This document shows positions 9,595 through 25,172 of a stretch of DNA of 32,000 nucleotides, in pieces. Where the stretch lies: NCBI RefSeq assembly GCF_000684975.1, contig NZ_BAXZ01000005.1, positions 317,827-349,826 on the forward strand. Reading direction: 5' to 3'. Below the pieces are notes generated by a model. It did not search any database. It saw only the letters and a program-made list of their open reading frames with translations, and was not told the origin of the DNA. Source of the stretch: Paraburkholderia acidipaludis NBRC 101816. GTDB taxonomy: Bacteria > Pseudomonadota > Gammaproteobacteria > Burkholderiales > Burkholderiaceae. How positions within the stretch are numbered: the first letter of the stretch is position 1; each line of letters begins with the position of its first letter. The position numbers and the translations under genes are program-made.

Positions 9595-9858
9595 TTAGGC
9601 CGCTGCCGGGACGACGTTGACCGTGTGCTTGTTCGCCGCGCCCTTGGTGGTGAACGAGACGTGGCCATCGACCAGCGCGTAGAGCGTGTGGTCCTTGCCG
9701 ATGCCGACGTTCAGGCCCGGGTGCATGCGCGTGCCGCGCTGGCGAACGATGATGCCGCCGGCGAGGATCGCCTGGCCACCGAACACCTTGACGCCCAGTC
9801 GTTTCGACTCGGAATCGCGGCCGTTACGCGAGGAACCGCCTGCCTTTTTGTGTGCCAT
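9595..9858 (-). CDS. rpmA: 50S ribosomal protein L27
   Basis: 87 aa starting [24 protein letters not shown]. Confidence 0.97.
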
Positions 9859-9884
9859 TTGTTTGCTCCTTTACCTGCGTGCGC

Positions 9885-10196
9885 TTACGCGTTGATCGCG
9901 TCGATGCGCAGTTCGGTGTAGTTCTGGCGGTGGCCGCCATGCTTCTGGTAGTGCTTCCGGCGACGCATCTTGAAGATGGTCACTTTGGCGTGACGACCGT
10001 GCGAGACAACGGTGGCCTTGACGGAAGCCCCACTGACCAGCGGCGTACCGAACTGAATCGATTCGCCTTCGCCCACTGCGAGAACCTGGTCGAGCGTGAT
10101 TTCTGCGTCAATGTCAGCCGGTATCTGTTCTACTTTGAGTTTTTCGCCAACGGCAACCTTGTACTGCTTGCCGCCGGTTTTTATGACCGCGTACAT
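9885..10196 (-). CDS. rplU: 50S ribosomal protein L21
   Basis: The conserved start [14 protein letters not shown] is residue 13 of track ORF 9885..10232, which is the ATG at 10196. This gives 103 aa. Confidence 0.95.
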
Positions 10197-10471
10197 TGAG
10201 AACCTCACTCTGAGAATACTTTCCAGACACACTGCGCGCTGGAAACCTTAGATTATACATAGAGTTAGCGGCGCGGTCAAAACTCCTTGACATCCATCTC
10301 GGCCTGCCGCCACGCGCACGGCGGCACATCCCGTGCGGAGCGTCGAAAGCGCCGCCTGGCGGGCGTTTCCCGAGTCCCGCCCCTGGACCGAAGGCCAATC
10401 TGGAGACGTCTCAGGGTCCGGCGTTTGCGCGATTCGCCTTATAATCCGCGGCACTACCCCTATTCGCCATC

Positions 10472-11464
10472 ATGTCGTCCACCGCCACCCACACCCCCAG
10501 CGCCGCTGCCCTGCTCGCCCCGATTGCCGCTGACATGGAGCAGGTCAACCGCGTCATCCGGCAAAGCCTGGCGTCCGAGGTGATGCTGATCAACCAGATC
10601 TCCGAGTACATCATCGGTGCGGGGGGCAAGCGCCTGCGCCCGGCGCTGCTGCTGCTCGTCGCGGGGGCGCTGGGCGACCGCGGCACGCATCGTCACGAAC
10701 TCGCCGCCGTCGTGGAATTCATCCATACGGCGACGCTGCTGCATGACGACGTGGTGGACGAATCCGACCTGCGGCGCGGCCGGCAGACGGCCAATGCGCT
10801 CTTCGGCAACGCCGCGAGCGTGCTCGTGGGCGACTACCTGTACTCGCGCTCGTTCGAAATGATGGTGGGCGTGGGCAAGATGCGCGTGATGGAGATTCTT
10901 TCCCAGGCGACCACGATCATCTCCGAAGGCGAGGTGCTCCAGCTCCTGAACATGCATGACGCCGACGTGGACGTGTCGCGCTACATGCAGGTGATCCGCT
11001 ACAAGACGGCCAAGCTGTTCGAGGCGGCGGCACAGCTTGGCGCAGTGCTTTCGGGGTCGGATGCGCGAACGGAAGAAGCGGCCGCCGAGTTCGGCCGGCG
11101 CATCGGCACGGCATTCCAGCTCATGGACGACTGGCTCGATTACGCAGGCACGGCCGAGGCGATGGGCAAGAACGCCGGCGACGACCTGCGCGAAGGCAAG
11201 CCCACGCTGCCGCTCATCTGGCTGATCGAGCACGGCACGGCGGCGGAAGCGGCGCTCGCGCGCGAGGCGATCGAACAGGGCGGCACGACGCGCTTCGACG
11301 AAATCTTCGCGGCGATCACGCGCTCGGGCGCGCTCGATCACACGCTGGAATGCGCAAGGACCGAGGCGCAGGCCGCCGCCGACGCAATTTCGGCCTTCCC
11401 CTCTTCCATTTACAAAGAGAGCCTGCTAGAATTATGTTCTTACTCGACGACGCGCCAGTCTTGA
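10472..11464 (+). CDS. ispB: Octaprenyl diphosphate synthase (trans-polyprenyl diphosphate synthase)
   Basis: 330 aa with two Asp-rich motifs, LLHDDVVDESDLRRGR and FQLMDDWLDY. Conserved position divergent from rplU-rpmA. Confidence 0.93.
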   Translation: MSSTATHTPSAAALLAPIAADMEQVNRVIRQSLASEVMLINQISEYIIGAGGKRLRPALLLLVAGALGDRGTHRHELAAVVEFIHTATLLHDDVVDESDLRRGRQTANALFGNAASVLVGDYLYSRSFEMMVGVGKMRVMEILSQATTIISEGEVLQLLNMHDADVDVSRYMQVIRYKTAKLFEAAAQLGAVLSGSDARTEEAAAEFGRRIGTAFQLMDDWLDYAGTAEAMGKNAGDDLREGKPTLPLIWLIEHGTAAEAALAREAIEQGGTTRFDEIFAAITRSGALDHTLECARTEAQAAADAISAFPSSIYKESLLELCSYSTTRQS

Positions 11465-11496
11465 TTAAGACGCGGCATGTTGAAGAGTCCAGCAGC

Positions 11497-11541
11497 AAAT
11501 TCGGGGTGTAGCTTAGCCTGGTAGAGCGCTACGTTCGGGAC
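11497..11541 (+). repeat. attL direct repeat (5 nt of leader plus tRNA-Pro positions 1-40)
   Basis: aaattcggggtgtagcttagcctggtagagcgctacgttcgggac is identical to 25091..25135. Confidence 0.9.
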
Positions 11542-11574
11542 TGTTTACACGGTCCACAAATCCTCTCACCCCGA
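11502..11574 (+). pseudogene. Chimeric pseudo-tRNA-Pro (attL/attP-type copy)
   Basis: The 5' 40 nt and the last 16 nt (aatcctctcaccccga) match the intact gene. The 3' anticodon-stem strand, variable loop and 5' T-stem strand are replaced by tgtttacacggtccaca, which cannot pair. There is no CCA. Confidence 0.8.
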
Positions 11575-11723
11575 ATTAAAAACCCCTTTAAAATCAATGA
11601 GTTGCTGAGCTTTGATCTCAGGTCAGTATTGCACTAGACTGGTGCATACGATCTTTTGATTTTGCTCTGCGGCTTTTCTGTGCTTTCGATTCTCTGTTTG
11701 CGCTGTATGGGTTGCGGCTCTCT

Positions 11724-13007
11724 ATGCCAATACCAATAGAACAGCCAACGATTTCCCTTCTTCCATCCAAAGCAACCCGTACCGTGCCGATTCCAGGCAC
11801 GCTCGAATCCGTACCGGGCTATCCAGACAAGCTCAAGATTTACCGCATGGCAGCCAGCCCATTCTGGCAAGTGCGATTCTTCGACGGCCGCAAGACCATC
11901 AAGCGTAGCACCGGCGCAACAGACAAGCGCATTGCGCACCGGTTCGCCAAAGACCTCTACGAACAGATCCTCTACAGCAAATTCGGCGATGTCGATAACA
12001 CCGGCCGCAGCCGCTTCGGCGTCTGCGCAGCCGGCATGCTGGAAGCGCAAGCGGGCCGCGTGCTTCGCAAAGAGATTTCCGCGCAGTCGCATCAGAACGA
12101 CATCTACATGCTCAATAACCGCGTGCTTCCGTTCATGCGTGAGCTGGATGTCAGCGAAGTCACCTACGAAGTGCTTGAGCGGTTCGTTACCGCGCTATCC
12201 GATCTATCTGCGTCCGCAATACAGCGGCATCTCGGCATCGTTCGCAAAACGCTCGATTACGCAGCAAATCATCGATTGCTGACCGGCATTCCCAATTTCC
12301 CAAAAATCAAGAAGCGCGAAGAACCGCGCGGCTGGTTCACCGTCCGCGAATATCGCTGGCTGTGGTCGAAAGCTCGCTCCCTGCTTGGAACCAGACAGGT
12401 CATTGAACCGAAATCGGGCAAGGATGTGGACGTTCGGCGCGTCCAGTTCACGGATGATCTGCTCTACATGATCGCGTTTATGGTCAACGGCTTCATCCGC
12501 CCTACCGACCTGAAAACCATGCAGCACCGGCATGTCGAAATCATCCGAAACAGCCATACTTATCTGCGACTGACGCTGCCGGAAAGCAAAAAACACAACA
12601 AGCCGATCGTCACGTTACGGAGAGCCGTCGATGCTTATGAACGGCTGACGGCCATTCATCGTGCGGAAGGGCTGGCCGGACCGGCCGACTACGTTTTCCT
12701 GCCTCAGTTCAAGAATCGGGCGACCGCGCTGCGTCGACTCGAACAGCAGTTCAATTTCCTGCTCGATGCGCTCGACCTGAAAACCGGCCTGCGTGGCGAA
12801 AAGCGCACGATCTACAGCTTGCGGCATACGTCCATCATGTACCGACTGCTGTATGGCGACGGAATCGACATGCTGACGCTTGCCCGCAATGCCCGCACGT
12901 CTGTCGAAATGATTGAGCGTTTCTACGCCAGCGAGCTAGTCGGCGAAATGAACATCGGCGCGATCCAGTCGCAGCGTCGGCGCAAGACTCGATCCGAACT
13001 GCGCTGA
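11724..13007 (+). CDS. int: Tyrosine-type site-specific integrase (phage/P4-like)
   Basis: Track ORF 11712..13007 starts at a TTG; the first ATG is at 11724. Catalytic-domain signatures are IRPTDLKTM, YSLRHTSIMY (HxxR) and the terminal MIERFYAS Tyr. It is adjacent to attL. Confidence 0.88.
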   Translation: MPIPIEQPTISLLPSKATRTVPIPGTLESVPGYPDKLKIYRMAASPFWQVRFFDGRKTIKRSTGATDKRIAHRFAKDLYEQILYSKFGDVDNTGRSRFGVCAAGMLEAQAGRVLRKEISAQSHQNDIYMLNNRVLPFMRELDVSEVTYEVLERFVTALSDLSASAIQRHLGIVRKTLDYAANHRLLTGIPNFPKIKKREEPRGWFTVREYRWLWSKARSLLGTRQVIEPKSGKDVDVRRVQFTDDLLYMIAFMVNGFIRPTDLKTMQHRHVEIIRNSHTYLRLTLPESKKHNKPIVTLRRAVDAYERLTAIHRAEGLAGPADYVFLPQFKNRATALRRLEQQFNFLLDALDLKTGLRGEKRTIYSLRHTSIMYRLLYGDGIDMLTLARNARTSVEMIERFYASELVGEMNIGAIQSQRRRKTRSELR

Positions 13008-13184: not shown

Positions 13185-13847
13185 ATGACTGACATCGTAC
13201 TCACTCGCAAATTCGGCGAGCCTTTCCCGATCTTTGATTCGATCAGTGCGGCGTCTGACGCGATCACCAAGGCCGCATTTCGGCTCTATGTTGTGATAAA
13301 CCCAGACCACTCAGCAGACGACTTCTTAAGGGAAGTCCTCATGCCCATAGCGCAGTCATCGGCCGAAAGCCCGACGCAAATCGAAGTTCGGGTGTTCAAG
13401 AATCACTCCGAGCAATCGTTCGTCATTTACATGCGAGCAATCTGCCACGCGTGCGCCTACGTACAGGAAGCACGAAACGCGCACAATGAAGGCCGGGAAA
13501 GCGAAGGGTGGTCTCATATCGCCAATGCACACTACCTGCTGGGTTATGCGGAAGGCATATTTGCCCTGGAACCGGCGCTAGTCCGCACTATCTCCGCCCG
13601 AGCAAGGAAAAATTCATCCGAAGGCGATGAAAAGCGATATGGGCCGCTCCGGAAACTGGCTCGGGAACTTGCCGCCGCTGGCAACTACAAGAGCAAACGC
13701 AACGCCGCGCTGTCGATCAAGGATCGGGTCATTGCCGAATCACGCAAGACGGGCGTCAACATGTCCGAAGCGCAGGCAGAAAAAACCATCACGGCATGGC
13801 TTGAGGGGATGACGTTTGCTCGCAAACAGGGAACTTCTGCGGGCTGA
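13185..13847 (+). CDS. Hypothetical protein (no motif recognised)
   Basis: 220-aa ORF with normal amino-acid composition and no competing ORF. Helical-looking C-terminus. Confidence 0.55.
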   Translation: MTDIVLTRKFGEPFPIFDSISAASDAITKAAFRLYVVINPDHSADDFLREVLMPIAQSSAESPTQIEVRVFKNHSEQSFVIYMRAICHACAYVQEARNAHNEGRESEGWSHIANAHYLLGYAEGIFALEPALVRTISARARKNSSEGDEKRYGPLRKLARELAAAGNYKSKRNAALSIKDRVIAESRKTGVNMSEAQAEKTITAWLEGMTFARKQGTSAG

Positions 13848-13955
13848 CGCAGTATGTCAGCGGGCGAGCAATCTATTTTTAAATCCCGCTCCGAAATAAA
13901 GTTCGTTTCGTCGATTAGCTAATCGACGATTCCGAAACCTTATAAGGAGTATGTC

Positions 13956-14816
13956 ATGGAAAATATCAACGCAACCGAAACCAACACGCAGGAACTCGAT
14001 ACGAGCGCCGCAAAAGAATTTCCGATTGAGAAGTCCAAGCTCAAAAAGGCTCTCGAGAAAAATAAGCAATCGGTTGGCTTCGAATTCAGCTCGAACAAGC
14101 TGGAGTCACACGATGAAAATGTGGTAATCCCTCTTCTCAAAGCAGAGCTGGACGATCTCAAGAAGCGCGGCGAGTCGATTAGAAAAAAGATCGACGGATT
14201 TCACGGAAAAATTCAGCAATCTGCAATTGACGAGCTTGCGAAATGTCTTGGGATTCGTCAGAAATTTTTCAAAATCGACAGCATCTTGCTTCAAGACAAA
14301 ATCTACGCCACCCTGTATGAGAAAGCAATGAACGAGCCGTTCAAAAAAAAGCGAAAGAATACGACAGAATACCATTTGATTTCGCGAATTTACCGCGGAG
14401 AAGAGCGGCGACAAGCGTCCTCCGATGCACTCATCCTCCAGCGCGCCAACGACGCAGGCCAGACGGAACAGACATTTGCGGCATGGGTGCTTGCAGAGAA
14501 AGGACTTGATGAAATTCGTCGTGCCATCTCCGCAGAGCGCAAGGTTGCAAATTCCAGCAATGGTAAGTTAAAAAAGAAAATCAGCAAGAATGTTGGAACC
14601 GATCGATTTATCAAGCTATTCAATGATCTAAACCACTCTGGACATGTTCGAGATATGACAGTTCTCGAAAAGGATGAGATGCACACCTTGTTTGGAAGTT
14701 GGCTTATTTGGGAGCCTGAAAATTCCGTACCTATCGTTGTGTACCCTCGGAAAGACGGGAAATTCCAGATTCGCAAACTTGATCTTAATGCGATGCGAAC
14801 CAACAATCCTTCTTAA
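13956..14816 (+). CDS. Hypothetical protein, Lys/Glu-rich, AT-rich gene
   Basis: 286-aa ORF preceded by a strong RBS (taAGGAGtatgtcATG). Predicted coiled-coil-like N-terminus. It is the most AT-rich stretch of the window. Confidence 0.65.
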   Translation: MENINATETNTQELDTSAAKEFPIEKSKLKKALEKNKQSVGFEFSSNKLESHDENVVIPLLKAELDDLKKRGESIRKKIDGFHGKIQQSAIDELAKCLGIRQKFFKIDSILLQDKIYATLYEKAMNEPFKKKRKNTTEYHLISRIYRGEERRQASSDALILQRANDAGQTEQTFAAWVLAEKGLDEIRRAISAERKVANSSNGKLKKKISKNVGTDRFIKLFNDLNHSGHVRDMTVLEKDEMHTLFGSWLIWEPENSVPIVVYPRKDGKFQIRKLDLNAMRTNNPS

Positions 14817-14941
14817 AATTGTCTGTTGACGCGACGTTTTTGTCAAAATGTTTCTTGATGGCCCAGTAGCCCTTCGCTACCCTCTTTTACATCGGCATTG
14901 CACTTGATGCCGTTCCGATATTAAGCGTAGCAAGGGGTTAA

Positions 14942-15376
14942 ATGTTCGCGATCACGCGTTTTCATAATTTCATGTCGCTGTATCAAGGGCGGTACGCTAC
15001 CGCCCTTGCAAAATCGCTCGGTACGTCGGTGTTCGCGGCGAAAGCGCTCGATATCGCACTGTCCACCGGCGAAATCTCCCTTGATAAACTGCATCTGCTG
15101 CTCGGTTGCAGTCGGGGACAGGCAATCGGTGCTGCGTTCGACTTGCAGGAACAGGGGCTAGCCCGAGTCATCGAATCGACAAAAAGCCGCAACGGAGAAT
15201 ACTTCCTAGTGGCCGTCGATGCACGGTGCGAAGCTGCCCGACTGTACCGCGCCAAGCTGGAACGACTCGGCCGTGATATCGGCCTGTCCGATGCTCTGGA
15301 AAAGACGCTTCCGGCCCTGCAGGCGATCTTCATGGACGCCCTATCCGCGATGGTAGCGAAGCCACCCAAACGGTAG
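14942..15376 (+). CDS. Winged-helix (MarR-like) domain protein, paralogue A
   Basis: 144 aa. Shares RFHxFMSxY...AAxAL...LxxLLGxSxGQxIGAxFDLQ with the convergent ORF 15410..15889. Confidence 0.6.
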   Translation: MFAITRFHNFMSLYQGRYATALAKSLGTSVFAAKALDIALSTGEISLDKLHLLLGCSRGQAIGAAFDLQEQGLARVIESTKSRNGEYFLVAVDARCEAARLYRAKLERLGRDIGLSDALEKTLPALQAIFMDALSAMVAKPPKR

Positions 15377-16460: not shown

Positions 16461-16816
16461 GAGTCGGACCGGATGCGAAAACAATCAGGGGCCGGCGCCC
16501 AACCTCGCACCGTAGCAAGGAACCGAGTTCCGGCCATGAAGCGTCGTTCGTATGCGTTATCGCACGACCTTTCAAGCGTCTGCTCTGCACTTGCACCGGC
16601 CCCTTGTTCGGAGGCTGACCGGTGCACATCTGGCGAAGTGTTTGCCGTGGGCTGCCCTGAAACCGATCTCTACGTTTAACGCGGGCGCTCACTGGGGCGT
16701 GCGCTATTTCGCGGCCGGCAGGTTTCTGCCAAAACGCAGCCGCGAGTGAAATCGCGGTGGGCGTACCACGTCAGCCGCCTCGCCGCTAGGTGCCAAGGGC
16801 GAGTCCGCTGACACAC

Positions 16817-19708
16817 TTAACCGAGATACATAATGGCCGTCGCGCGTCGCGAGCGACGGCCATTTGTGTCAGCCTCATGCTTGATGGCCAGTCGTGTACC
16901 AGCTCCAATATGTGTCCACCGGTGTGTGTTCCGGTTCTCGAAGGCGGATGAATGCAGGAAATACGACTGGCCATCGTCGTCCTTTGCGAACACATAACTT
17001 GGAAACCCATCGGCAGCGGGCACGTTGCTGACGCAAACAAGCGTATAGCCCTCATCCTTGAGCGTTTCGGTCACCCCTTGGAGCGACTCTCCGACGGCTG
17101 GCGCGATCTCGGCGATACCGATTTTCGGCGGCAGCGCGATACCCAACGTTCCCGCGACCAGTCGAAGGTCCGATTCGTCAGCACCGGCGCGTTGCAGTTC
17201 GGGCAAATAGTCATCAATAAGGCGGTGGATTGAGTCAGCCTGTGGGTCAGAAGGCCTTCCGAGGTCGGGCTTGCGGAGATAGAAAGCGATATCGCCGCAC
17301 AGTTTTCGTAGCTCGTGCGCAAGTGTGCGGGACATGCCGTATCGCTTTAGCAAGAACGCTGCCGCGTCAATGCCATGGCCAATTAGCTTCCATACACGAC
17401 CGTGCCCAGCAACACCTCGCCGGAATTCAAGATCAGCCTGTCGGCGATATGCCGACACACGTGCTGCACCGTGTGTCGCCATTAATGGTCCAGACACCTT
17501 CCAATCCTGGGTCAGCGAGTAAACGGTTCCCAGCTTTTCCTGGAAGTTTAGTGCGGACAGATAGATGCTCCACAGCCGCAGGACGGCATGCTCCGCATCT
17601 TCTGACACATTACCCCATCCTGCGTCGATTAGCTCCTGACATAGGGTCTCCGCCTCATCGTGGTTGTTTGCACGCATTGCCAGTGCAGCAAGCATGAGCT
17701 TGGCAGCAGGATCGGCACTATCCTGCTGGATTGCAAACCGCAATGCAGACTCTGCGTCCCTCGGATCATTCAACCTCAAGAGCAACTTGGCCTGCAAGCG
17801 ATACAGAAATGCGGAACCGCCTTGGTTGTCGATCTGCTGCCGCACGCGCGTCAGAAGCGGTGCGCATGGCAAAGGGCTCTCGGCAGCGCATGCGCCTGCG
17901 ACCTGTCTCGAAAGCGCAATCGCCGAGGCCGGTGTACCTTCAGGGATGAAAAATGGATCGAGCGGTGAAAGCCCGCGCTCGGCCTGCAATTTGAGCGCGG
18001 AGGCGACGGCTGCCTCGCTCTTTCGCTGCCAATCAAGCAGCGAGGCCCGCACTTTGAGATTTCTGGGTTGCACACGCAACAACTCCCGGATTGACGTGCC
18101 CAACGCATAAACCTCGCCCGCATCTGTTGTTTCCCGCGTAATCAGGGAAGTCTTACCAAGGCTGGCGATTGCCGCTGAAATAGTGTCGACGTCCAAGTTC
18201 AACGCTTCGCAGAGGCGACCTCGGGACGGCTGCTCCAGTACGAATAGCGCTTCAAGTACTTCGTTTGCTGCCGGGGATAGAGTTTCGAGCAAATTCGAAA
18301 AGGAAAACTCTGTAACATCGACCTGTGACGATTCCAAGCTCTCGTTGATGTCTCGGCCTGCGACGTAGTAGTCCACCGTTAGGCGTATCGCCAGTGGGTT
18401 GCTGTGGCAGGTATCGATGATGCGCTGGAGTGTCACAGCGTCGAGGGGCGCCGTGCCTTTCGCTGCTAGGTAGGCACGCGCAAGCGCCATCGCTCCGCCA
18501 TCATCGAGGGATGGCAATGGGATGTTTTTCGCCCCGTCGAGCGGCACCCGACTTGTGACGATCACCTTCCAGTTTTGCGGCAACTCATCCATGAGGCCGT
18601 CAAAGACGAGCGGCTCATCGCGCAGCAGAGTTTCGAGGTTGTCAACAAATAGCCATATCCGTCTGTCGTCGCAAGCCCTCAGCGCGGCAGGAAAGTCGGG
18701 CCAGTCCCAACCGAACATGGCGTTCAAAGAGGCGGTGAGATGGTCACGGACGCCTGCAATCGTCTGCGGCGCGTTGAGCGTCTCGATGCCACGCTCGGTC
18801 AGCTTTTCCTGTTTGAGCGAGATAAAGAGTACGCCATCGGTTAGCTGCGGCGCCTCCGGCGAAACGCAAAAATCGGCTAGGACCTGCAGTGCTAAACTCG
18901 TCTTCCCGATACCGCCTCTCGCTACAATCGAGACAAGAGGTGACCGAGCATTCCGCAGTTCCTTTTGAAATCTTGCGACATCCCGATTGCGCCCGATCAA
19001 GCCCGTGGACGAGTGTTCGAACTCGGTGGGCAAATTCGTGGGAACACACCATCGCGGCTGGTTCAACCATTCATCGGGCGGCTCCTTGAGGTCGCCGGCG
19101 ATCGCGCTTGCCAGCGCCGCCGAGACATCATACAGGTGCAGCGAGTCAATCGCGGGGTCACTGGCTAAAGCGCAGCAGCGGTACCAGTAGCAATGCGGGA
19201 ACGGCCTGTTGGGATGGCTGACCGCATTGCGGATGTCGAACACCTCAAGAGCATTGCAAAGCGCCATCAGTCGCTTAGCGTGTGCGGCCTCCGACGAGCC
19301 CTCCGCTACTTCGAGCGCAAGCTGCAGAACTTCTGCAAAGTAGCTGTTCTCGATAATTATCGAACACGTCTCCTGCAGATCGCCGACGATCGAGCGACCT
19401 ATTCTGCTCAGTATTTCCCTCCCTACCGGGCCGGTGGAGATGTTCGTGTTTGATTCGAGAATATAGCGGCCGAGACTACGTTCGAATTCGTATATCACCA
19501 TCGCGCATTGAATGCGTAACTGACCGTCGCCGTTCAATTTGATCCCCCGCAGTCCCGTTTCTGGTCCGTTTGCACGGACGCGATTTACATGCCACCAGAA
19601 CGCCATTATAAGGTCAGTACACCGGGTCATCGCCCTGTGAAACAACTGGCCCATTCGCACCGGCATGTAGGCGGCGCAGCCTATCTGCGCAACGAGATCT
19701 CGCGACAT
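16817..19708 (-). CDS. STAND-class NB-ARC NTPase with an N-terminal HEPN-like domain, TPR-like repeats and a possible CSD-like C-terminal domain
   Basis: 963 aa. NB-ARC motifs are the P-loop VARGGIGKTSLA, Walker B RIWLFVDNLE, VIVTSR, and the GxP motif SNPLAIRL followed by a winged-helix-like region. The N-terminal ~230 aa contain FDIRNAVSHP (Rx4H). Residues ~620-760 are TPR-like helical repeats. The last ~80 aa (YVFAKDDDGQSYFLHSSAF...GTRLAIKHE) resemble a cold-shock/OB pattern. Confidence 0.8.
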   Translation of the reverse strand: MSRDLVAQIGCAAYMPVRMGQLFHRAMTRCTDLIMAFWWHVNRVRANGPETGLRGIKLNGDGQLRIQCAMVIYEFERSLGRYILESNTNISTGPVGREILSRIGRSIVGDLQETCSIIIENSYFAEVLQLALEVAEGSSEAAHAKRLMALCNALEVFDIRNAVSHPNRPFPHCYWYRCCALASDPAIDSLHLYDVSAALASAIAGDLKEPPDEWLNQPRWCVPTNLPTEFEHSSTGLIGRNRDVARFQKELRNARSPLVSIVARGGIGKTSLALQVLADFCVSPEAPQLTDGVLFISLKQEKLTERGIETLNAPQTIAGVRDHLTASLNAMFGWDWPDFPAALRACDDRRIWLFVDNLETLLRDEPLVFDGLMDELPQNWKVIVTSRVPLDGAKNIPLPSLDDGGAMALARAYLAAKGTAPLDAVTLQRIIDTCHSNPLAIRLTVDYYVAGRDINESLESSQVDVTEFSFSNLLETLSPAANEVLEALFVLEQPSRGRLCEALNLDVDTISAAIASLGKTSLITRETTDAGEVYALGTSIRELLRVQPRNLKVRASLLDWQRKSEAAVASALKLQAERGLSPLDPFFIPEGTPASAIALSRQVAGACAAESPLPCAPLLTRVRQQIDNQGGSAFLYRLQAKLLLRLNDPRDAESALRFAIQQDSADPAAKLMLAALAMRANNHDEAETLCQELIDAGWGNVSEDAEHAVLRLWSIYLSALNFQEKLGTVYSLTQDWKVSGPLMATHGAARVSAYRRQADLEFRRGVAGHGRVWKLIGHGIDAAAFLLKRYGMSRTLAHELRKLCGDIAFYLRKPDLGRPSDPQADSIHRLIDDYLPELQRAGADESDLRLVAGTLGIALPPKIGIAEIAPAVGESLQGVTETLKDEGYTLVCVSNVPAADGFPSYVFAKDDDGQSYFLHSSAFENRNTHRWTHIGAGTRLAIKHEADTNGRRSRRATAIMYLG

Positions 19709-19910
19709 TTGCGACCGGCTGCAAGTATCTTGTGGTCGAGGTTACGGCGGATCCGTGGGAGTGGGAGAGAGCCGACGATCTGCCAGCGATGGAAACACAC
19801 GTGATCGACCGCTGTACCTTTGAAGGGGACATAGCGCGTTACCAGAAACGCGTGGCGGAAGAGGGTCGCACTGTGCCGAAGAGTTGCCTGCAGGAATTTG
19901 CCTCCCCCTT

Positions 19911-20105
19911 TTACGGCACGAGTTTCATCGTGCCGTGACTACCGCAACGCAAGCAACCGTCGTTGCCGCTCCAATTGCGGTTCGTACAGCGATGATCGCG
20001 GCATCCGACAGCGCCGCATTTGGTGCACCGATAGATATTGGCCGAGTGTTGCCCTGCCTGATTGGGAATGCGACCTGCGCAGCTTGCCATGTGTGATTTC
20101 TCCAT
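19911..20105 (-). CDS. Cys/His-rich miniprotein (zinc-ribbon-like)
   Basis: 64-aa ORF. The better start is the ATG at 20090, preceded by GGAGAA, giving 59 aa. Pattern is CxxC...Cx2HxC...CxxCxxH, with 7 Cys and 4 His. It begins 8 nt after the stop of the upstream ORF on the same strand. Confidence 0.5.
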   Translation of the reverse strand: MEKSHMASCAGRIPNQAGQHSANIYRCTKCGAVGCRDHRCTNRNWSGNDGCLRCGSHGTMKLVP

Positions 20106-20112
20106 CAGTTGA

Positions 20113-20358
20113 TTAAACGCCTGCTATTCTGAACAGGTCTCCTTTATCCGACGGCGCAAACCTCGCTAGACCAATGCGCCGATTGAATAGCTGGACTGCT
20201 TTCTCGAAATACTGCTGATCGGTCAGCCTGTGCATGTCCTGTCCGAGCGACCAACCGTTGCCGAGTACGTGCGTTAGTTCCGGCCTGCTCTCATGCCTGA
20301 ACGCGAGCGCAAACCGGCGACGTGCTTCTATCTGAGCAGGATTAGCGCGGCTCATCAC
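20113..20358 (-). CDS. Hypothetical 81-aa protein, translationally coupled to the small recombinase
   Basis: Its start (GTG 20358 or ATG 20355) overlaps the recombinase stop codon (20355..20357). No motif recognised. Confidence 0.5.
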   Translation of the reverse strand: MMSRANPAQIEARRRFALAFRHESRPELTHVLGNGWSLGQDMHRLTDQQYFEKAVQLFNRRIGLARFAPSDKGDLFRIAGV

Positions 20359-20936
20359 ACGAGGTCCACAGCTTTGCGCTGCATGTCGTCGTTGACGTCG
20401 ATGTATCGCTGCGTCGTCGAAATATCTCGATGTCCTGCTAGCGACATCAACACTCGCACGCCGACGCCTTTGCTTGCCAGATTGGTGATGAACGAGCGCC
20501 GGCCGGAATGGCTGCTCGCGCCTTGAATGCCTGCTTCCCTGTAGAGCCAGTGGAAGTACTGACAGAGCGTATTGGCCGTGAACCCCGCCCGCTTCTGTGT
20601 ATAGAACAGCGGTTGCTCAGGTCTCGAATTCTTCAAGCTCGCGACATACGCGGCGAGCTCGCGCCGTAACTTCTGTCCCACGAACACGGTACGGGCGTGT
20701 CGCCCTTTGGTCTGCTCTGGAGCAAGTCGAATTTCTGACTTGATCGAACCATCTGCGTCGAGCACATCCCTCACAAGCAACGCGGCGACTTCGCCAACAC
20801 GCATACCAGCCCAATGCGTCAGCAGCACCATCGCTCGATTACGCAGCACATGCCGCCGCAACGAGACGTAGGTCAGTACCTGCTTTAGTTCCTTTTCGGT
20901 GAATGTCTTGGCCTGCTTCATTTTCCCCCTGAACAA
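20355..20936 (-). CDS. Small (193 aa) tyrosine recombinase, catalytic-core-only, FimB/FimE-sized
   Basis: Box I is AGMRVGEVAALLVRDV. HSGRRSFITNL supplies HxxR, and LAGHRDISTTQRYIDV supplies the H and catalytic Y. There is no N-terminal arm-binding or SAM-like domain. Confidence 0.8.
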   Translation of the reverse strand: MFRGKMKQAKTFTEKELKQVLTYVSLRRHVLRNRAMVLLTHWAGMRVGEVAALLVRDVLDADGSIKSEIRLAPEQTKGRHARTVFVGQKLRRELAAYVASLKNSRPEQPLFYTQKRAGFTANTLCQYFHWLYREAGIQGASSHSGRRSFITNLASKGVGVRVLMSLAGHRDISTTQRYIDVNDDMQRKAVDLV

Positions 20937-21414: not shown

Positions 21415-21909
21415 CTATTCTTCGTCGGGAATGTGCATGTTCCCGACATCCACGTTGTCGGCGCTGCCCAAACCGACTTCTTTGGTGATGTAGTCGATCC
21501 AGCCTTCAGTGCATACAGGTTTGATCTTAATTTCGTTATTTCCGAACGCGGTCTTGTACCATGCTTTATGAATCGCAGCGGCGATTTCCTCTTGGCTCAT
21601 CTCCTCTCGGAAATTTCCGAAGGCGCAGTGATAGTGCAGATTCTTACCGGTCGCCTTGCCCTCCAAAACGGGAATGACGTACAGGCGTCGAGTCGAATTT
21701 CCGAACATGCTGCGATTCAGTCTGTTCATGAAGTGTCGGAAGTTCTTTCGTGCTTCGTCTTCGGTCAGTGTCTGCGTAGTCATGCCCTTGTCGTTCGTGA
21801 TTTCACGATACTGCTTCATCGTTAGCGTAACGGCATGCGTCATGCACCATTGGTACTCAAGCAGCCAATCGCGCGTCTCCCGCTGAATTTGTTTTTGATT
21901 GTTTGTCAT
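21415..21909 (-). CDS. Minimal HUH-superfamily endonuclease (Rep / inovirus Gp2 / YagK-YfjJ-like)
   Basis: Track ORF 21415..22074 overlaps the divergent gene. The internal ATG at 21909 (MTNNQKQ...) gives 164 aa. The three ordered motifs are HAVTLTM (motif I), NLHYHCAF (HUH) and IDYITKEVG (YxxK). Confidence 0.55.
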   Translation of the reverse strand: MTNNQKQIQRETRDWLLEYQWCMTHAVTLTMKQYREITNDKGMTTQTLTEDEARKNFRHFMNRLNRSMFGNSTRRLYVIPVLEGKATGKNLHYHCAFGNFREEMSQEEIAAAIHKAWYKTAFGNNEIKIKPVCTEGWIDYITKEVGLGSADNVDVGNMHIPDEE

Positions 21910-22022
21910 AGCTGTATTTAGCTCAGCCAGGACAAAAAAACCTATATAACCGAGAAATTCTGTTGATTTCAACAATGGGCGAATACATCCTCCTCTGTAT
22001 CGAAACGACATAGGAGAACTAC

Positions 22023-22469
22023 ATGAGCGCAATCGCAAATCTGAAAATCGTCGCTGCAAAACGCCCCGGTGCATTGCCGCAGGTCGTACAGCGTCGTAAC
22101 CGACTGATCGCGCAAATTTGGGAACAGACAGAACTTGCGAAGGCTCAACAGGCCGGAACGTCGTTTACACCGACGAAGTTCCGTTCGGTGAAGGATGCCG
22201 AAACCGGCGAACGCCGTAACGTGGAGGTGCAGAAGCGCGTTCGTGCTTGGTGGTGGACTGCGGAAAACGGTCGCATTCACATGCACGTGAAATACGGCTC
22301 GAAGACGCTGGAACTCGCGAAGGGCAAACAGGCTATCGAAGTCGGTACGCTAAAGGATCTGATTCCGACGCTCGACACGCTCAAGGCAGCAGTCGTCGCC
22401 GGTGAACTCGATGCGCAGATCGAAGGCGCAAGCAATCAGATGCGGTCGGGCTTTGTTGGCAAGACGTGA
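22023..22469 (+). CDS. Hypothetical protein (148 aa)
   Basis: Strong RBS (atAGGAGAactacATG), normal composition, and followed by a 13-bp perfect hairpin. No motif recognised. Confidence 0.65.
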   Translation: MSAIANLKIVAAKRPGALPQVVQRRNRLIAQIWEQTELAKAQQAGTSFTPTKFRSVKDAETGERRNVEVQKRVRAWWWTAENGRIHMHVKYGSKTLELAKGKQAIEVGTLKDLIPTLDTLKAAVVAGELDAQIEGASNQMRSGFVGKT

Positions 22470-23275: not shown

Positions 23276-24160
23276 TTACCTCCGAAGACCACCACCTCTA
23301 TATAGGCTTTGTCTGCCAGACCGGCTTGACTCGTAATCCTCCATCAGGAGTGCAGAGAGCAGATTTCCCTTCCCAACAATCCGCAGGCGCGAATCTTTTG
23401 TTTCGTCGGTCTTGGGATCATAGTAGCCCCTTGGCCTTAGGCGGTCATCCACCAGTTCCAGTCGGCCATCCCTCTTCTGACTGATTCGGCCAATAATGTT
23501 GCCTCGCGCGTCCTTTAAGACCTGATCACTCGGTGGCTTTATAGATTTTGTGCGTGCTGAGATGTCGTTGGACGTCCTCGACAGCCTTCTGTCTCCCTTC
23601 GACGAACGCCTGCCACCGGCAAAGAGCTTGAACAGGCCCAACATGATCAAACCAAGTATGACAAGACCACCGCCTACACTACCACCTTGTGTCGTAACCG
23701 CGTTCGAAATTAAAGGTTCTGCGGACCTCTCCACAGTCAGGGGTGGCTGAGTCGCCTGCAGGGATGTTACTTGGGCCTGACTAGCGCCGGCTTCGCCGCT
23801 CGTGGCTAACTCGTGCGACGATTGCCTTGCCAACTCGGACTGCCCCGATTGCATAGACTTCATGAGTTCCTTCCACTGGGAAAAGACCTCATCAATACAG
23901 TGAACATCCGTGCACGCATCACGCTGCTGCTGCCAGTCGACAAGGTCTTCGCTCGATAGTCGTCCCGAAGCCAGCAACGATTGCTGCTGCGCGAAGATGC
24001 TGTCGTACTCGTTGTTTAGGATGGCATGGTCGCAGATGATACGCCGCGCCGCTTGCTGGGTAGTCTCGCATTGCAGGTCCCGAGCCGAAACGCTGGTACT
24101 TCCGAGTACCACCATGACGAACAGTGTTGTCGTCATTCCCTTGTGCCATATCACCGCCAA
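23276..24160 (-). CDS. Single-pass membrane protein with a Cys-containing exported N-domain (DUF1311/LprI-like?) and a basic cytoplasmic tail
   Basis: Signal-like segment TLFVMVVLGSTSVSA. N-domain CETTQQAARRIICDHAILNNEYD...RDACTDVHC. TM segment GGGLVILGLIMLGLFKLFAG. The start codon is uncertain, with a GTG, TTG and ATG all near 24136..24160. Confidence 0.55.
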   Translation of the reverse strand: MAVIWHKGMTTTLFVMVVLGSTSVSARDLQCETTQQAARRIICDHAILNNEYDSIFAQQQSLLASGRLSSEDLVDWQQQRDACTDVHCIDEVFSQWKELMKSMQSGQSELARQSSHELATSGEAGASQAQVTSLQATQPPLTVERSAEPLISNAVTTQGGSVGGGLVILGLIMLGLFKLFAGGRRSSKGDRRLSRTSNDISARTKSIKPPSDQVLKDARGNIIGRISQKRDGRLELVDDRLRPRGYYDPKTDETKDSRLRIVGKGNLLSALLMEDYESSRSGRQSLYRGGGLRR

Positions 24161-24493
24161 CTCCCTGTTTGAAACCTCACAGTACGTGATTACGGCGCAT
24201 GCGTAGAAATCTTTACGTCGAGGAAAACCTACGTCATTTGATGCATCTGCTAACGCACACTTTTCTGCTTATCAAGGAGAAGTTCCCGGAGTACGTGGCG
24301 CCGCTCACAATTTCATGAAAGGTGGAGTAGCCTTTATTGCCACCCATCCTATTATTGCCACGAGGGCTGTCGCGCTTCCCAGACCGAACCCCACCTTCCG
24401 GCTAAAATCCACCCTAACGTCCGCTAATGAGAAAGTTGAGAGGCCACTTCGGGTCAATCGCGGTCTCCGGCCGCATAAATATCCGCGACAACG

Positions 24494-24694
24494 ATGGAGA
24501 CAACAACCATGAGATACCACGAAATTCTGACCCGATCTGGTCTGCACGAAGTAGCCGACCTTGAGCAACAGCGCATCAAAGCGCAGCAGCAGGCTGCCAA
24601 GCGTCAGACCGCAGCAGCGAAACGTGCTGACCTGATGCATCGAAAGCAGAAGATAGACAAGCAGCTTTCCGACCTCAACTCCAAGCCGATCTGA
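24494..24694 (+). CDS. Small coiled-coil/basic protein
   Basis: 66-aa ORF. The ATG at 24509, preceded by GGAGA, gives MRYHEILTRSG...QQRIKAQQQAAKRQ. It is followed by two strong hairpins. Confidence 0.4.
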   Translation: METTTMRYHEILTRSGLHEVADLEQQRIKAQQQAAKRQTAAAKRADLMHRKQKIDKQLSDLNSKPI

Positions 24695-24705
24695 CAGCGT
24701 TCGGC

Positions 24706-24772
24706 AAATGTCGGTCGAACCGACATTTGAGCGAAGCGCAAGCCCTGTTCGCACGCAAGTCGAACAGGGCTT
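24706..24772 (+). terminator. Two consecutive strong hairpins (tandem terminators or a recombinase-type core site plus terminator)
   Basis: aaatgtcgg-tcgaa-ccgacattt (24706..24728) and aagccctgttcg-N9-cgaacagggctt (24740..24772). Confidence 0.45.
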
Positions 24773-25004
24773 CATCGTTGAAGAACCGCGTTTTTCGTGA
24801 TTTCTCCTGTGTACGATGTACACAGGCTACGCCTGCTGCACTGCGTTTTCTTTGGTTTTGGGGCCACATTGACTGTAGTACGCAGTGTAGTACAGTTAAT
24901 TCCTACAAAAATACAACAAGGTTCAGTCGGATGATGTTCGGAGCCGGCCACCGCAGTATCGGCGCAGACTCTCACACGATCTCCAAATTTTGCCGGCAAG
25001 CTTC

Positions 25005-25090: not shown

Positions 25091-25135
25091 AAATTCGGGG
25101 TGTAGCTTAGCCTGGTAGAGCGCTACGTTCGGGAC
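25091..25135 (+). repeat. attR direct repeat
   Basis: Identical to 11497..11541. Confidence 0.9.
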
Positions 25136-25172
25136 GTAGAGGCCGGAGGTTCGAATCCTCTCACCCCGACCA
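25096..25172 (+). tRNA. tRNA-Pro (anticodon CGG)
   Basis: 77 nt. Acceptor stem CGGGGTG/CACCCCG, D-arm GCTT/GAGC, anticodon stem CTACG/CGTAG, loop TTCGGGA (CGG, G37), T-arm GGAGG-TTCGAAT-CCTCT, and an encoded CCA. Confidence 0.95.

What the first reader, a model, noticed from the sequence alone, without database searches (positions are those of the whole stretch)
16817..19708. HEPN-like / NB-ARC / TPR / CSD-like STAND protein: candidate NLR-type conflict (anti-phage) system
**Sequence evidence.** This 963-aa island-borne protein has an unambiguous AP-ATPase/NB-ARC core: GGIGKTSLA, LFVDNLE, VIVTSR and NPLAI.
- Upstream of the core, ~230 residues contain D-I-R-N-A-V-S-H, the Rx4-6H signature of HEPN RNases, in the RN..H flavour seen in Swt1-like, Abi and Cas13 HEPN domains.
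- Downstream of the core is a TPR-like helical array.
- The protein ends in an ~80-aa beta-rich segment whose pattern (aromatic-V-F...D-x-Y-F-L-H-x-S...G-x-x-L) is reminiscent of cold-shock/OB nucleic-acid-binding domains.

**Inference.** An effector - STAND switch - repeat sensor layout is the logic of Avs/bNACHT/NLR-like defence proteins. I cannot match this particular combination (HEPN + NB-ARC + TPR + CSD-like) to one of the named Avs types from memory.

**Context.** It sits in an integrase-bearing island, convergent with an XRE regulator and downstream of a recombinase/miniprotein trio.
Basis: partly seen in the sequence, partly recalled or inferred. Interest (0 to 1): 0.8.

Follow-up and report, generated by a model that had tools for sequence, protein, structure and literature searches.

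The report
HEPN RNase–STAND–TPR–cold-shock-domain defence-type protein
This is a real, strongly conserved single-gene cassette for a bacterial NLR-like switch protein that joins a predicted RNA-cutting (HEPN) domain to an ATPase, a repeat sensor and an RNA-binding cold-shock-type domain; it is most likely an untested anti-phage suicide system, but its design was already catalogued by computer analysis in 2013.

Summary
The ORF and every quoted motif are present. The real gene most likely starts at TTG 19537, giving 906 aa rather than 963.

All four domain calls hold:
- **N-terminus:** a divergent Swt1-like HEPN domain. The R-N-x3-H motif is invariant in 121 homologues. No Pfam model or Foldseek search detects it directly. 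It is linked through a sister family whose N-termini match Pfam HEPN_Swt1.
- **Core:** an NB-ARC-type STAND NTPase.
- **Sensor:** a TPR-like helical region.
- **C-terminus:** a cold-shock/S1-like OB domain, supported by an AF2 model with Foldseek and by hhalign (95%) to the sister family's Pfam-validated CSD.

**Mobility and context**
- The gene moves alone. Similarity to the Burkholderia cenocepacia and Ralstonia copies ends within about 330 bp of the gene.
- It occurs in about 70 of 185,579 species across many phyla.
- It sits in a tRNA-Pro island here. Elsewhere it lies beside CBASS, in a Tn7-like transposon, at a prophage edge and on 8-kb Acinetobacter plasmids.

**Most likely function (inferred):** trigger-induced oligomerisation pairs the HEPN domains into an active RNase, causing abortive infection.

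**Novelty:** Anantharaman et al. (2013) already listed "HEPN + STAND + TPR + S1/CSD". I found no experimental work and no PADLOC model. Verdict: new, divergent member of a known kind; moderate interest.

The parts
16817..19537 (-).
19088..19537 (-). N-terminal all-helical domain (aa 1-150): divergent Swt1-like HEPN, the predicted RNase effector
   Evidence: AF2 pLDDT 88.7. Linked to the sister family by hhalign and reciprocal HMM tests with controls. Sister N-termini match PF18731. No direct Pfam or Foldseek hit.
19214..19231 (-). R103-N-A-V-S-H108, the Rx4H catalytic motif of HEPN; the extended motif FDIRNAVSHPNRPFP is at 19196-19240
   Evidence: Invariant in 121 of 121 sequences. Coordinates.
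19466..19492 (-). YEFERSLGR in helix 1; invariant E19 aligns with the E of the sister family's Ex3R motif
18989..19087 (-). Conserved linker PPxEW...NLPxxFEHxxTGLxGR joining HEPN to the NTPase; shared with sister families (NLPxPDFDDTGFxGR)
18053..18988 (-). NB-ARC-type STAND NTPase plus winged helix (aa 184-495). Walker A GGIGKTS at 18896-18922; Walker B FVDNLET at 18629-18655; TSR at 18545-18562; NPLAI at 18386-18400
   Evidence: (plant NB-ARC 8yl6, E 1.4e-4)
17093..18052 (-). TPR-like helical sensor region (aa 496-815). The Pfam TPR_16 hit above cutoff is at 17609-17797
16820..17062 (-). C-terminal cold-shock/S1-like OB domain (aa 826-906)
   Evidence: AF2 gives a helix plus 5 strands. Foldseek hits Csp, IF1, aIF1A and S1 domains, with TM up to 0.73 on the target. 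hhalign to the sister CSD: 95%, E 2.6e-8.
16741..19868 (-). Limits of the mobile single-gene cassette: 91% identical to B. cenocepacia over exactly this stretch. It includes about 330 bp upstream and a terminator-like hairpin at 16757-16740

Best explanation
The gene encodes a stand-alone, horizontally mobile NLR-like (STAND) protein of 906 aa. Its layout is: N-terminal Swt1-like HEPN RNase, NB-ARC-type NTPase with winged helix, TPR-like helical sensor, and C-terminal cold-shock/S1-like OB domain.

**Most likely mechanism**
- In the resting state the protein is a nucleotide-bound, autoinhibited monomer.
- An infection cue is recognised by the TPR region, possibly with the OB domain.
- This drives nucleotide-dependent oligomerisation.
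- Each protomer carries only one HEPN domain, and HEPN RNases need two domains to form an active site. Oligomerisation would pair the HEPN domains and switch on metal-independent RNA cleavage.
- The result would be translation arrest or abortive infection.

**Shown here by computation:** the architecture, the conservation of the catalytic and NTPase residues, single-gene mobility, the patchy phyletic spread, and residence in mobile elements and defence islands.

**Inferred:** RNase activity, activation by induced proximity, the anti-phage role, the trigger, and the role of the OB domain.
For: **Architecture**
- R103, N104 and H108 are invariant in 121 sequences.
- The motif sits at the end of helix 99-106 and the start of the following loop, and helix 116-125 follows. 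PMC3710099 describes this placement for HEPN.
- Our N-terminus against the sister N-terminus: hhalign E 0.0017 over 166 columns with motifs in register. The score was 26.9, against 20.2 or less in 21 controls.
- Reciprocal HMM scores were 18.4 and 15.7 bits, against 5.1 or less for reversed controls.
- 22 of 32 sister N-termini hit PF18731 HEPN_Swt1, best E 2.9e-8.
- For the NTPase, the family profile hits a plant NB-ARC protein in the PDB, and sister families score above the Pfam NB-ARC cutoff.
- For the OB domain.

**The gene stands alone**
- No neighbour is conserved across 11 contexts.
- DNA similarity to other copies ends at the gene's edges.

**Defence-type ecology**
- About 70 of 185,579 species across at least 8 phyla carry it.
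- One copy lies beside CBASS and an Mrr-type protein. Others lie in a Tn7-like transposon, in a toxin-antitoxin and IS-rich region, on an 8-kb plasmid with RelE/ParE, and at a prophage edge.
- The nearest ORFs in 32 loci include RM I and IIG, SIR2+HerA, dGTPase, AbiLi, AriA and a type IV REase.
- Sister STAND proteins carry a Schlafen/AlbA_2 domain in place of HEPN, which is effector swapping.

**Selection:** dN/dS 0.045.
Against: - No experiment exists, and none was found in the literature.
- No Pfam HEPN model matches this family directly: 0 of 24 N-termini.
- Foldseek finds no solved or viral HEPN structure (best E 0.6 and 0.1).
- The hhalign probability for the N-terminus is only about 15%.
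- The canonical Ex3[KR] motif is not intact.
- Walker B is DN..E rather than DD/DE.
- No PADLOC defence model covers the protein.
- Several copies sit among housekeeping or catabolic genes.
- The neighbourhood test had no genome-wide control and gives only per-family counts.
- No copy was found in 50,697 phage genomes.
Confidence: 0.6

Rival explanations
1. It is a signal-transducing STAND regulator of the MalT/AfsR/GutR type. The TPR region would bind a metabolite or protein, the C-terminal cold-shock domain would bind DNA or RNA to control gene expression, and the N-terminal domain would be regulatory rather than a nuclease.
For: - JGI names sister-family proteins 'LuxR family glucitol operon activator', i.e. 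GutR-like.
- The CSD is a nucleic-acid-binding module.
- Some copies lie next to catabolic operons or regulators.
- There is a weak wHTH-type hit at aa 460-530 of the 963-aa ORF.
Against: - There is no conserved neighbouring operon or target.
- The gene moves as a 3.1-kb single-gene cassette between unrelated sites, plasmids, a transposon and a prophage.
- The R-N-x3-H catalytic signature is invariant.
- The family is present in only about 0.04% of species, scattered over many phyla.
- No LuxR or other classic output HTH domain is found.
Confidence: 0.1
2. It is a selfish addiction or stress-response toxin rather than a phage sensor. The RNase would be released by loss of the element or by a cellular stress such as RNA damage or cold, stabilising plasmids and islands.
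For: - It is found on 8-kb plasmids beside RelE/ParE, in toxin-antitoxin-rich regions and next to MqsA.
- HEPN domains are common toxin-antitoxin toxins (PMC3710099).
- The CSD family is linked to cold and RNA stress (established knowledge).
Against: - No cognate antitoxin gene is conserved next to it.
- A 900-aa STAND-TPR sensor is typical of ligand-triggered immune receptors (PMC13581612).
- Known defence genes recur in the neighbourhood.
Confidence: 0.15
3. The N-terminal domain is not a catalytic HEPN. It would be a helical adaptor or oligomerisation domain that happens to carry an RNxxxH-like motif, and the output would be something else, such as recruitment of a host factor or RNA sequestration by the CSD.
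For: - No direct Pfam HEPN hit.
- No Foldseek hit to any HEPN structure.
- Low hhalign probability.
Against: - R, N and H are invariant at canonical spacing and at the canonical secondary-structure position.
- There is a significant reciprocal HMM link to a family that matches HEPN_Swt1, Abi_2 and DUF3644.
- The domain occupies the effector position of the architecture and is swapped for Schlafen/AlbA_2 in relatives.
- No partner gene could supply an effector.
Confidence: 0.1

Closest known systems
Swt1-like HEPN + STAND-ATPase + TPR + S1/CSD proteins catalogued by Anantharaman, Makarova, Burroughs, Koonin & Aravind 2013 (Npun_F6454, MED222_16016, Desac_1927; PMC3710099). Here these are represented by the 'sister family' (Novosphingobium L083, Aliivibrio L081, Marinobacter L076, Pectobacterium L078; NCBI name 'cold shock domain-containing protein').
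   Same: - Same four-domain order, length (about 860-910 aa) and linker motif.
- Same DNLE Walker B, and the RNx3H motif is followed by RP.
- The NTPase is 26-30% identical.
- The C-terminal domain is homologous.
- The N-terminal domain is significantly similar.
   Different: - This subfamily is so divergent that Pfam sees neither the HEPN nor the CSD, and NB-ARC scores below its cutoff.
- The motif is RNAVSHPNRPF rather than RNRVMHxRPL.
- Ex3R is degraded to ExxxGR.
- The RNP1-like KGFGFI of the CSD is replaced by SYxFAxD.
- The N-terminal domain profile finds only 246 clusters among 1.84 billion representatives, nearly all with this same layout.
- I could not retrieve the 2013 example proteins themselves, so identity of the sister family with them is inferred from architecture and taxa.
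Avs/AVAST antiviral STAND proteins (Avs1-5; Avs7-24 in Lee et al., Nature 2026, PMC13581612)
   Same: - Single-protein tripartite logic: N-terminal effector, STAND NTPase, C-terminal TPR-like sensor.
- Defence-island residence, patchy horizontal spread and effector swapping.
   Different: - No PADLOC Avs model matches.
- The NTPase is nearest to NB-ARC/AP-ATPase.
- The effector is a HEPN RNase, not one of the experimentally characterised DNase, SIR2, TIR or protease types.
- An extra OB/CSD domain follows the sensor.
- The trigger is unknown.
- Whether it lies in one of the 589 clades of the 2026 census could not be checked, because the supplement is not held.
RNase L (ankyrin sensor, pseudokinase, KEN-type HEPN), and PrrC/RloC (ABC-ATPase + HEPN anticodon nucleases)
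   Same: The logic is the same. A ligand- or NTP-controlled assembly pairs HEPN domains, and the resulting metal-independent RNase shuts down translation during infection (established knowledge; PMC3710099).
   Different: The sensor and switch modules are unrelated, and there is no sequence relationship beyond the HEPN superfamily. This is an analogy, not membership.
Plant and animal NB-ARC NLRs (e.g. ADR1-like At5g66900, PDB 8yl6; Apaf-1)
   Same: - The NB-ARC NTPase motifs GxGKT, TSR/TTR and (G/N)PLA.
- Profile match at E 1.4e-4 over aa 290-398.
- An induced-proximity effector at the N-terminus.
   Different: A TPR sensor instead of LRR or WD40, a HEPN effector instead of CC/TIR/CARD, and a bacterial, mobile, single-gene unit.

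Membership tests
HEPN superfamily (as defined in PMC3710099) | Rx4-6H motif with a polar residue (N/D/H) immediately after R | tested here: met
   R103-N104-A-V-S-H108. R, N and H are invariant in 121 of 121 homologues.
HEPN superfamily (as defined in PMC3710099) | The motif lies at the end of core helix 3 and the start of the loop to helix 4 of an all-alpha domain of about 100-170 aa | tested here: met
   AF2 model with pLDDT 88.7. Helix 84-96/99-106 ends at R103-N104, H108 is in the loop, and helix 116-125 follows. The criterion is quoted.
HEPN superfamily (as defined in PMC3710099) | Four-helix up-down bundle similar to solved HEPN structures | tested here: inconclusive
   Foldseek against the PDB gave best E 0.6. 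Against BFVD it gave best E 0.1. No HEPN protein was among the hits. HEPN folds are diverse and helical bundles are hard for Foldseek, so this neither confirms nor refutes.
HEPN superfamily (as defined in PMC3710099) | Upstream conserved acidic residue, typically Ex3[KR] | tested here: inconclusive
   E19 is invariant and aligns with the E of the sister family's Ex3R, which 85 of 113 sister sequences carry. In this family, however, position +4 is G23 and the basic residue is at +5.
Pfam HEPN_Swt1 (PF18731) | Match to the curated profile | tested here: not met
   0 of 24 N-terminal domains match at E <= 10. The link is only transitive: 22 of 32 sister N-termini match (best E 2.9e-8), and sister and own profiles match each other.
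HEPN superfamily | Metal-independent RNase activity dependent on R and H | not testable with these tools
   Needs biochemistry.
STAND NTPase, NB-ARC/AP-ATPase clade | Walker A GxxGxGK[ST]; Walker B; sensor-1 R (TSR/TTR); GxP-like (N/G)PLA motif; winged helix | tested here: met
   GGIGKT, VDNLE (a DN..E variant), TSR and NPLAI are all at least 90% conserved. The family profile hits plant NB-ARC 8yl6 at E 1.4e-4. Sister families score 34-42 bits against the cutoff of 23.5.
STAND NTPase, NB-ARC/AP-ATPase clade | Pfam NB-ARC gathering score for this protein itself | tested here: not met
   14.1 bits against a cutoff of 23.5, covering the P-loop only.
Avs/AVAST (PADLOC v2 models Avs1-5) | Match to a family HMM | tested here: not met
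   No Avs model at E <= 1. The best PADLOC hits are weak partial matches to CasR HTH and mad8.
Avs/AVAST | Effector-STAND-repeat sensor in one polypeptide, acting alone | tested here: met
   Architecture. No conserved neighbour, and a single-gene cassette.
Avs/AVAST | Phage-protein-triggered oligomerisation and anti-phage protection | not testable with these tools
   Needs plaque assays and trigger screens.
Cold-shock/S1-like OB fold | Five-stranded beta-barrel with a short helix between strands 3 and 4, similar to Csp, IF1 and S1 | tested here: met
   AF2 strands at 33-39, 49-54, 59-63, 83-88 and 98-105 of the model, with a short helix at 72-75. Foldseek hits TaCsp (E 1.2e-3, TM 0.69), Bc-Csp (TM 0.71-0.73), IF1, aIF1A and S1.
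Pfam CSD (PF00313) | Match to the curated profile; RNP1 (KGFGFI) and RNP2 (VFVH) motifs | tested here: not met
   No CSD hit for this protein. RNP1 is replaced by SYVFAKD and RNP2 by YFLH, with the aromatics kept. Homology to the sister CSD, which scores 46 bits (above cutoff), is supported by hhalign at 95%, E 2.6e-8.
Defence-island gene (guilt by association) | Recurrent proximity to known defence systems in unrelated genomes | tested here: inconclusive
   Strong PADLOC hits among the two nearest ORFs on each side in 32 loci: RM I/IIG, SIR2+HerA, dGTPase, AbiLi x2, AriA x3, mREase_IV x2. There are also strong hits 6-10 kb away: Lamassu, DRT, Avs1a, BrxL, DpdF, and CBASS beside the B. cenocepacia copy. 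There was no genome-wide background control, only per-family counts are available, and several loci are plain housekeeping.

The most novel reading that the evidence does not exclude
The C-terminal cold-shock/S1-like domain, rather than the TPR region alone, is the sensing element. The protein would then be a nucleic-acid-triggered bacterial NLR, detecting phage single-stranded RNA or DNA, or a replication intermediate. On that reading it would answer with a HEPN RNase, a bacterial counterpart of the RNase L logic, unlike the characterised Avs proteins, which sense phage proteins. My data do not exclude this. The OB domain is conserved across both subfamilies with its aromatic surface residues retained. 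It is absent, however, from about 775-aa relatives, which argues that it is accessory.
Probability: 0.15. Interest if true: 0.8.

Novelty: new member of a known kind. Interest (0 to 1): 0.45.

Why it matters
**What would be new if confirmed**
- It would add an RNase (HEPN) output to the experimentally characterised bacterial NLR/Avs repertoire, whose tested effectors have mostly been DNases, NADases and proteases.
- It would give a tractable single-gene model for how STAND oligomerisation switches on a HEPN active site that requires dimerisation.
- The appended cold-shock-type domain raises the testable question of whether some bacterial NLRs read or hold nucleic acids.

**Practical value now**
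- This roughly 250-cluster subfamily is annotated only as 'tetratricopeptide repeat protein', 'ATP-binding protein' or 'hypothetical'.
- It is missed by Pfam HEPN and CSD models and by PADLOC.
- The alignments made here would let annotation and defence-finder pipelines pick it up.

**Limit.** The design principle itself is not new. It was predicted in 2013.

Tried and rejected
- **Direct profile searches of the whole protein.** Pfam, NCBIfam and PADLOC returned only TPR plus weak P-loop hits.
- **Sequence search of the PDB.** The single sequence found nothing. The family profile found TPRs and one plant NB-ARC.
- **Pfam scan of 24 isolated N-terminal domains at E <= 10.** No HEPN family was found.
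- **Foldseek with the confident N-terminal AF2 model.** No significant hit against the PDB or BFVD.
- **Exhaustive HMMER search with the N-terminal profile against 1.84 billion representatives.** It recovered only the family itself (246 clusters) and no bridge to other HEPN families within the 150 hits listed.
- **A multi-gene system with the XRE gene or the integrase/miniprotein trio.** Rejected, because DNA similarity to other copies stops at 16741 and 19868 and neighbours differ in every genome examined.
- **The 963-aa start.** Rejected.
- **Paralogy of the two integrase-like ORFs of the island.** Rejected.
- **Checking the STAND census of Lee et al. 2026 for this clade.** The supplementary tables are not held.
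- **Exact-sequence look-up of the window protein.** Not in the collection.
- **Literature searches for experimental work on HEPN-STAND-CSD proteins.** Nothing found.


Full report
**1. The observation**

The gene is shorter at its 5' end.
- Homologues are 900-920 aa long and cover only 94% of the ORF.
- The TTG at 19537 is preceded by GGGGGA at a 5-nt spacing.
- In the 91%-identical B. cenocepacia locus an in-frame stop lies eight codons upstream of the same TTG.

I therefore use a 906-aa numbering (gene 16817-19537).

The motifs are not chance. In an alignment of 121 family members, R103, N104, H108, P109 and N110 are invariant, and the P-loop, DNLE, TSR and NPLAI motifs are at least 90% conserved. 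Against the B. cenocepacia copy dN/dS is 0.045 at dS 0.28. The gene is intact and under strong purifying selection.

**2. Central and sensor domains**

Pfam recognises only a TPR pair above its cutoff, plus a weak P-loop match to NB-ARC, AAA_16 and nSTAND1. A profile of the family hits a plant NB-ARC resistance protein in the PDB (8yl6, E 1.4e-4, aa 290-398) and many TPR proteins. Close relatives score above the Pfam NB-ARC gathering threshold. Together with GGIGKT, VDNLE, TSR and NPLAI, this places the core in the NB-ARC/AP-ATPase branch of STAND NTPases. Walker B has the unusual form DN..E.

**3. The C-terminal domain**

An AF2 model of aa 800-906 (pLDDT 78; above 80 in the folded part) shows one helix followed by five strands, with a short helix between strands 3 and 4. 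Foldseek against the PDB returns cold-shock proteins (TaCsp E 1.2e-3; B. caldolyticus Csp, target TM 0.71-0.73, rmsd 3.2 Å). It also returns IF1, aIF1A, S1 domains and LysRS anticodon-binding domains, all at probability 1.0.

Pfam CSD does not match this protein directly. A profile of the family's last 90 residues aligns to the Pfam-validated CSD of a sister family with 95% probability, E 2.6e-8. The classical RNP1 (KGFGFI) and RNP2 (VFVH) motifs are replaced by SYxFAxD and YFL(H), with the aromatic residues kept.

**4. The N-terminal domain**

This was the critical claim. Direct tests failed.
- No Pfam, NCBIfam or PADLOC HEPN model matches.
- None of 24 isolated N-terminal domains matches any HEPN family even at E <= 10.
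- A confident AF2 model (pLDDT 88.7, all-helical) finds nothing significant by Foldseek in the PDB or BFVD.
- An exhaustive HMMER search with the domain profile against 1.84 billion representative proteins finds only 246 clusters. Nearly all are about 900 aa, so the domain is confined to this architecture.

The bridge came from the genome scan. Besides about 70 true family members, it recovered more distant STAND proteins of the same length through the shared DNLE motif. These sister proteins come from Novosphingobium, Aliivibrio, Marinobacter, Pectobacterium, Neptunomonas, Desulfovibrio and others. They have:
- NB-ARC above the Pfam cutoff;
- CSD above the cutoff (up to 46 bits);
- N-terminal domains with IExDLR ... 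RNRVxHxRP motifs.

A search seeded with one of them returned at least 335 relatives. Most carry PF00931 + TPR + PF00313 and are named 'cold shock domain-containing protein' by NCBI. Of 32 sister N-termini, 22 match Pfam HEPN_Swt1 (best E 2.9e-8), with occasional Abi_2 and DUF3644 hits. 112 of 113 carry RNx3H and 85 of 113 carry Ex3[RK].

Our N-terminal profile aligns to the sister profile over 166 columns. E19 aligns with the E of Ex3R, RNAVSHPNRP with RNRVMH-RP, and the NLP linker is in register (E 0.0017).
- The hhalign score is 26.9, against 16.0 for the reversed alignment and 20.2 or less for 20 column shuffles.
- Reciprocal HMM-versus-sequence searches give 18.4 and 15.7 bits. Reversed controls give 5.1 and 3.0 bits or less.

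The secondary-structure position of the motif, at the end of a helix and running into a loop before the next helix, is the one described for HEPN domains in PMC3710099.

I conclude, at about 85% confidence, that this is a divergent Swt1-like HEPN domain with an intact catalytic motif. The fold-level confirmation is still missing, and the Ex3[KR] motif is degraded.

**5. The unit and its ecology**

No neighbour is conserved in the eleven contexts examined:

| Copy | Context |
|---|---|
| Window | 13.6-kb low-GC island next to tRNA-Pro, bounded by tRNA-derived direct repeats, with integrase genes |
| B. cenocepacia | Between an 805-aa Mrr-type protein and a CBASS operon (CD-NTase + patatin) |
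| Herbaspirillum | Cargo of a Tn7-like transposon |
| Ca. Methylospira | Toxin-antitoxin and IS-rich region |
| Ralstonia | Edge of a prophage-like replication module that IMG/VR lists as viral |
| Acinetobacter baumannii | 8-kb plasmids beside RelE/ParE |
| Shewanella | Flagellin-glycosylation island, with transposases |
| Xylophilus | Just downstream of a type VI secretion gene cluster |
| Three others | Ordinary metabolic or housekeeping surroundings |

Nucleotide similarity to the B. cenocepacia copy covers exactly 16741-19868. Similarity to the Ralstonia copy covers exactly 16816-19551. The mobile unit is therefore the gene with its own about 330-bp upstream region. The XRE gene and the integrase/miniprotein trio belong to the island, not to the system.

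The family occurs in about 70 of 185,579 species genomes. These are scattered over Beta- and Gammaproteobacteria, Bacteroidota, Cyanobacteria, Campylobacterota, Verrucomicrobiota, Planctomycetota, Patescibacteria and Firmicutes MAGs. No copy was found in 50,697 phage genomes.

I ran a rough neighbourhood test on 32 loci.
- The two nearest ORFs on each side (128 ORFs) gave strong PADLOC matches to type I and IIG restriction enzymes, SIR2+HerA, dGTPase, AbiLi, AriA, type IV REases, MADS components and several PDC candidates.
- ORFs 6-10 kb away (117 ORFs) matched Lamassu, DRT, Avs1a, BrxL, DpdF and SoFic.

Many loci are therefore defence islands. The test lacks a genome-wide control and reports only per-family counts, so I treat it as supportive, not quantitative. 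Some relatives of the NTPase carry a Schlafen/AlbA_2 domain in place of HEPN. This is the effector swapping typical of immune STANDs.

**6. Mechanism**

Established knowledge: HEPN RNases are metal-independent and need two HEPN domains to build the active site (PMC3710099). STAND/NLR proteins are nucleotide-dependent switches that oligomerise when their repeat sensor binds a ligand. In Avs proteins this juxtaposes the N-terminal effectors (PMC13581612).

Each protomer here has one HEPN domain. The most economical model is therefore trigger-induced oligomerisation, then HEPN pairing, then RNA cleavage, then growth arrest or abortive infection.

The OB/CSD domain could hold substrate RNA, contribute to sensing, or autoinhibit. 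It is missing from about 775-aa relatives, so it is probably accessory. All of this is inference. Nothing here shows RNase activity, a trigger or phage protection.

**7. Comparison with what is known**

The architecture was already recorded. Table 1 of Anantharaman et al. [quoted passage not shown] The present subfamily is a divergent branch of that assemblage. Current domain models do not see its HEPN and CSD. It matches no PADLOC Avs model, and there is no whole-protein PADLOC model for it or its sister family. I found no experimental study of any HEPN-STAND-CSD protein. Whether the 2026 STAND census includes it could not be checked.

It works like an Avs/NLR. It is a member of the NB-ARC-type STAND assemblage with Swt1-like HEPN effectors. 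It is not a member of a named Avs family by the tests available.

**8. Verdict**

- Novelty class: new (divergent, unannotated, untested) member of a known kind.
- Interest: 0.45.
- Most novel reading not excluded: the cold-shock domain makes this a nucleic-acid-sensing bacterial NLR (probability about 0.15).

Noticed in passing
window 11497-11575 and 25091-25169 (tRNA-Pro(CGG) at 25096-25172): The low-GC island (45-58% against 65-70% GC) is bounded by direct repeats derived from tRNA-Pro. The left copy shares the first 45 nt and the last 16 nt of the tRNA exactly, but has a different 17-nt stretch where the T-arm should be, and ARAGORN does not call it. It looks like an attL/attR pair with a tRNA-like pseudo-copy next to the 431-aa integrase (11712-13007).
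   Followed up: partly
window 19911-20105 (-), 20113-20358 (-), 20355-20936 (-): A 64-aa cysteine-rich miniprotein (several CxxC pairs, zinc-ribbon-like), an 81-aa ORF and a short (193-aa) ORF holding only the tyrosine-recombinase catalytic domain lie upstream of the STAND gene. They are outside the conserved cassette, have no Pfam or PHROG match except the integrase domain, and are not paralogous to the 431-aa integrase.
   Followed up: partly
window 21415-22074 (-) and 22023-22469 (+): An ORF with a borderline match to REP_ORF2-G2P (the replication initiator of filamentous or ssDNA elements; exactly at the Pfam cutoff) and a DUF6641 ORF. This hints that part of the island is a remnant of a small replicative element.
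   Followed up: no
window 13185-15376 (+), 23276-24823 (-): Five island ORFs (220, 286, 144, 294 and 172 aa) have no match in Pfam, PHROGs or PADLOC. The 286-aa ORF lies in the lowest-GC kilobase (45%).
   Followed up: no
L080, L084, L085, L089 (Acidobacteriota genomes): STAND proteins related through the NTPase carry an N-terminal Schlafen/AlbA_2 domain in the position occupied by HEPN here. This is effector swapping within the clade.
   Followed up: partly
L094 (A. baumannii LAC-4 plasmid pABLAC1, 4646-7318): A family member fills one third of an 8-kb clinical Acinetobacter plasmid, next to RepM and a RelE/ParE-type toxin-antitoxin pair. The same gene is on five other small A. baumannii plasmids and is annotated only as 'ATP-binding protein'.
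   Followed up: partly
L001/L011 (B. cenocepacia), 5022-7439 of L001: An 805-aa protein with a C-terminal Mrr_cat / type IV REase-like domain lies directly upstream of the 97%-identical copy, and a CBASS operon (CD-NTase, patatin) directly downstream. The large N-terminal part of the Mrr protein is unannotated.
   Followed up: no
L073 (Propionivibrio MAG), 9803-12427: An 875-aa protein intermediate between the two subfamilies (motif NDIRNQIAHPQYD; C-terminus KGFGFAYT...). Pfam recognises none of its domains. It may be a useful bridge sequence for profile building.
   Followed up: no
sister family, (e.g. P0330, P0347, P0369, P0373): Versions of about 775 aa in Vibrio parahaemolyticus, Dickeya, Pantoea, Aeromonas and Pseudomonas lack the C-terminal cold-shock domain. 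One relative (P0377) has an S1 domain instead.
   Followed up: no
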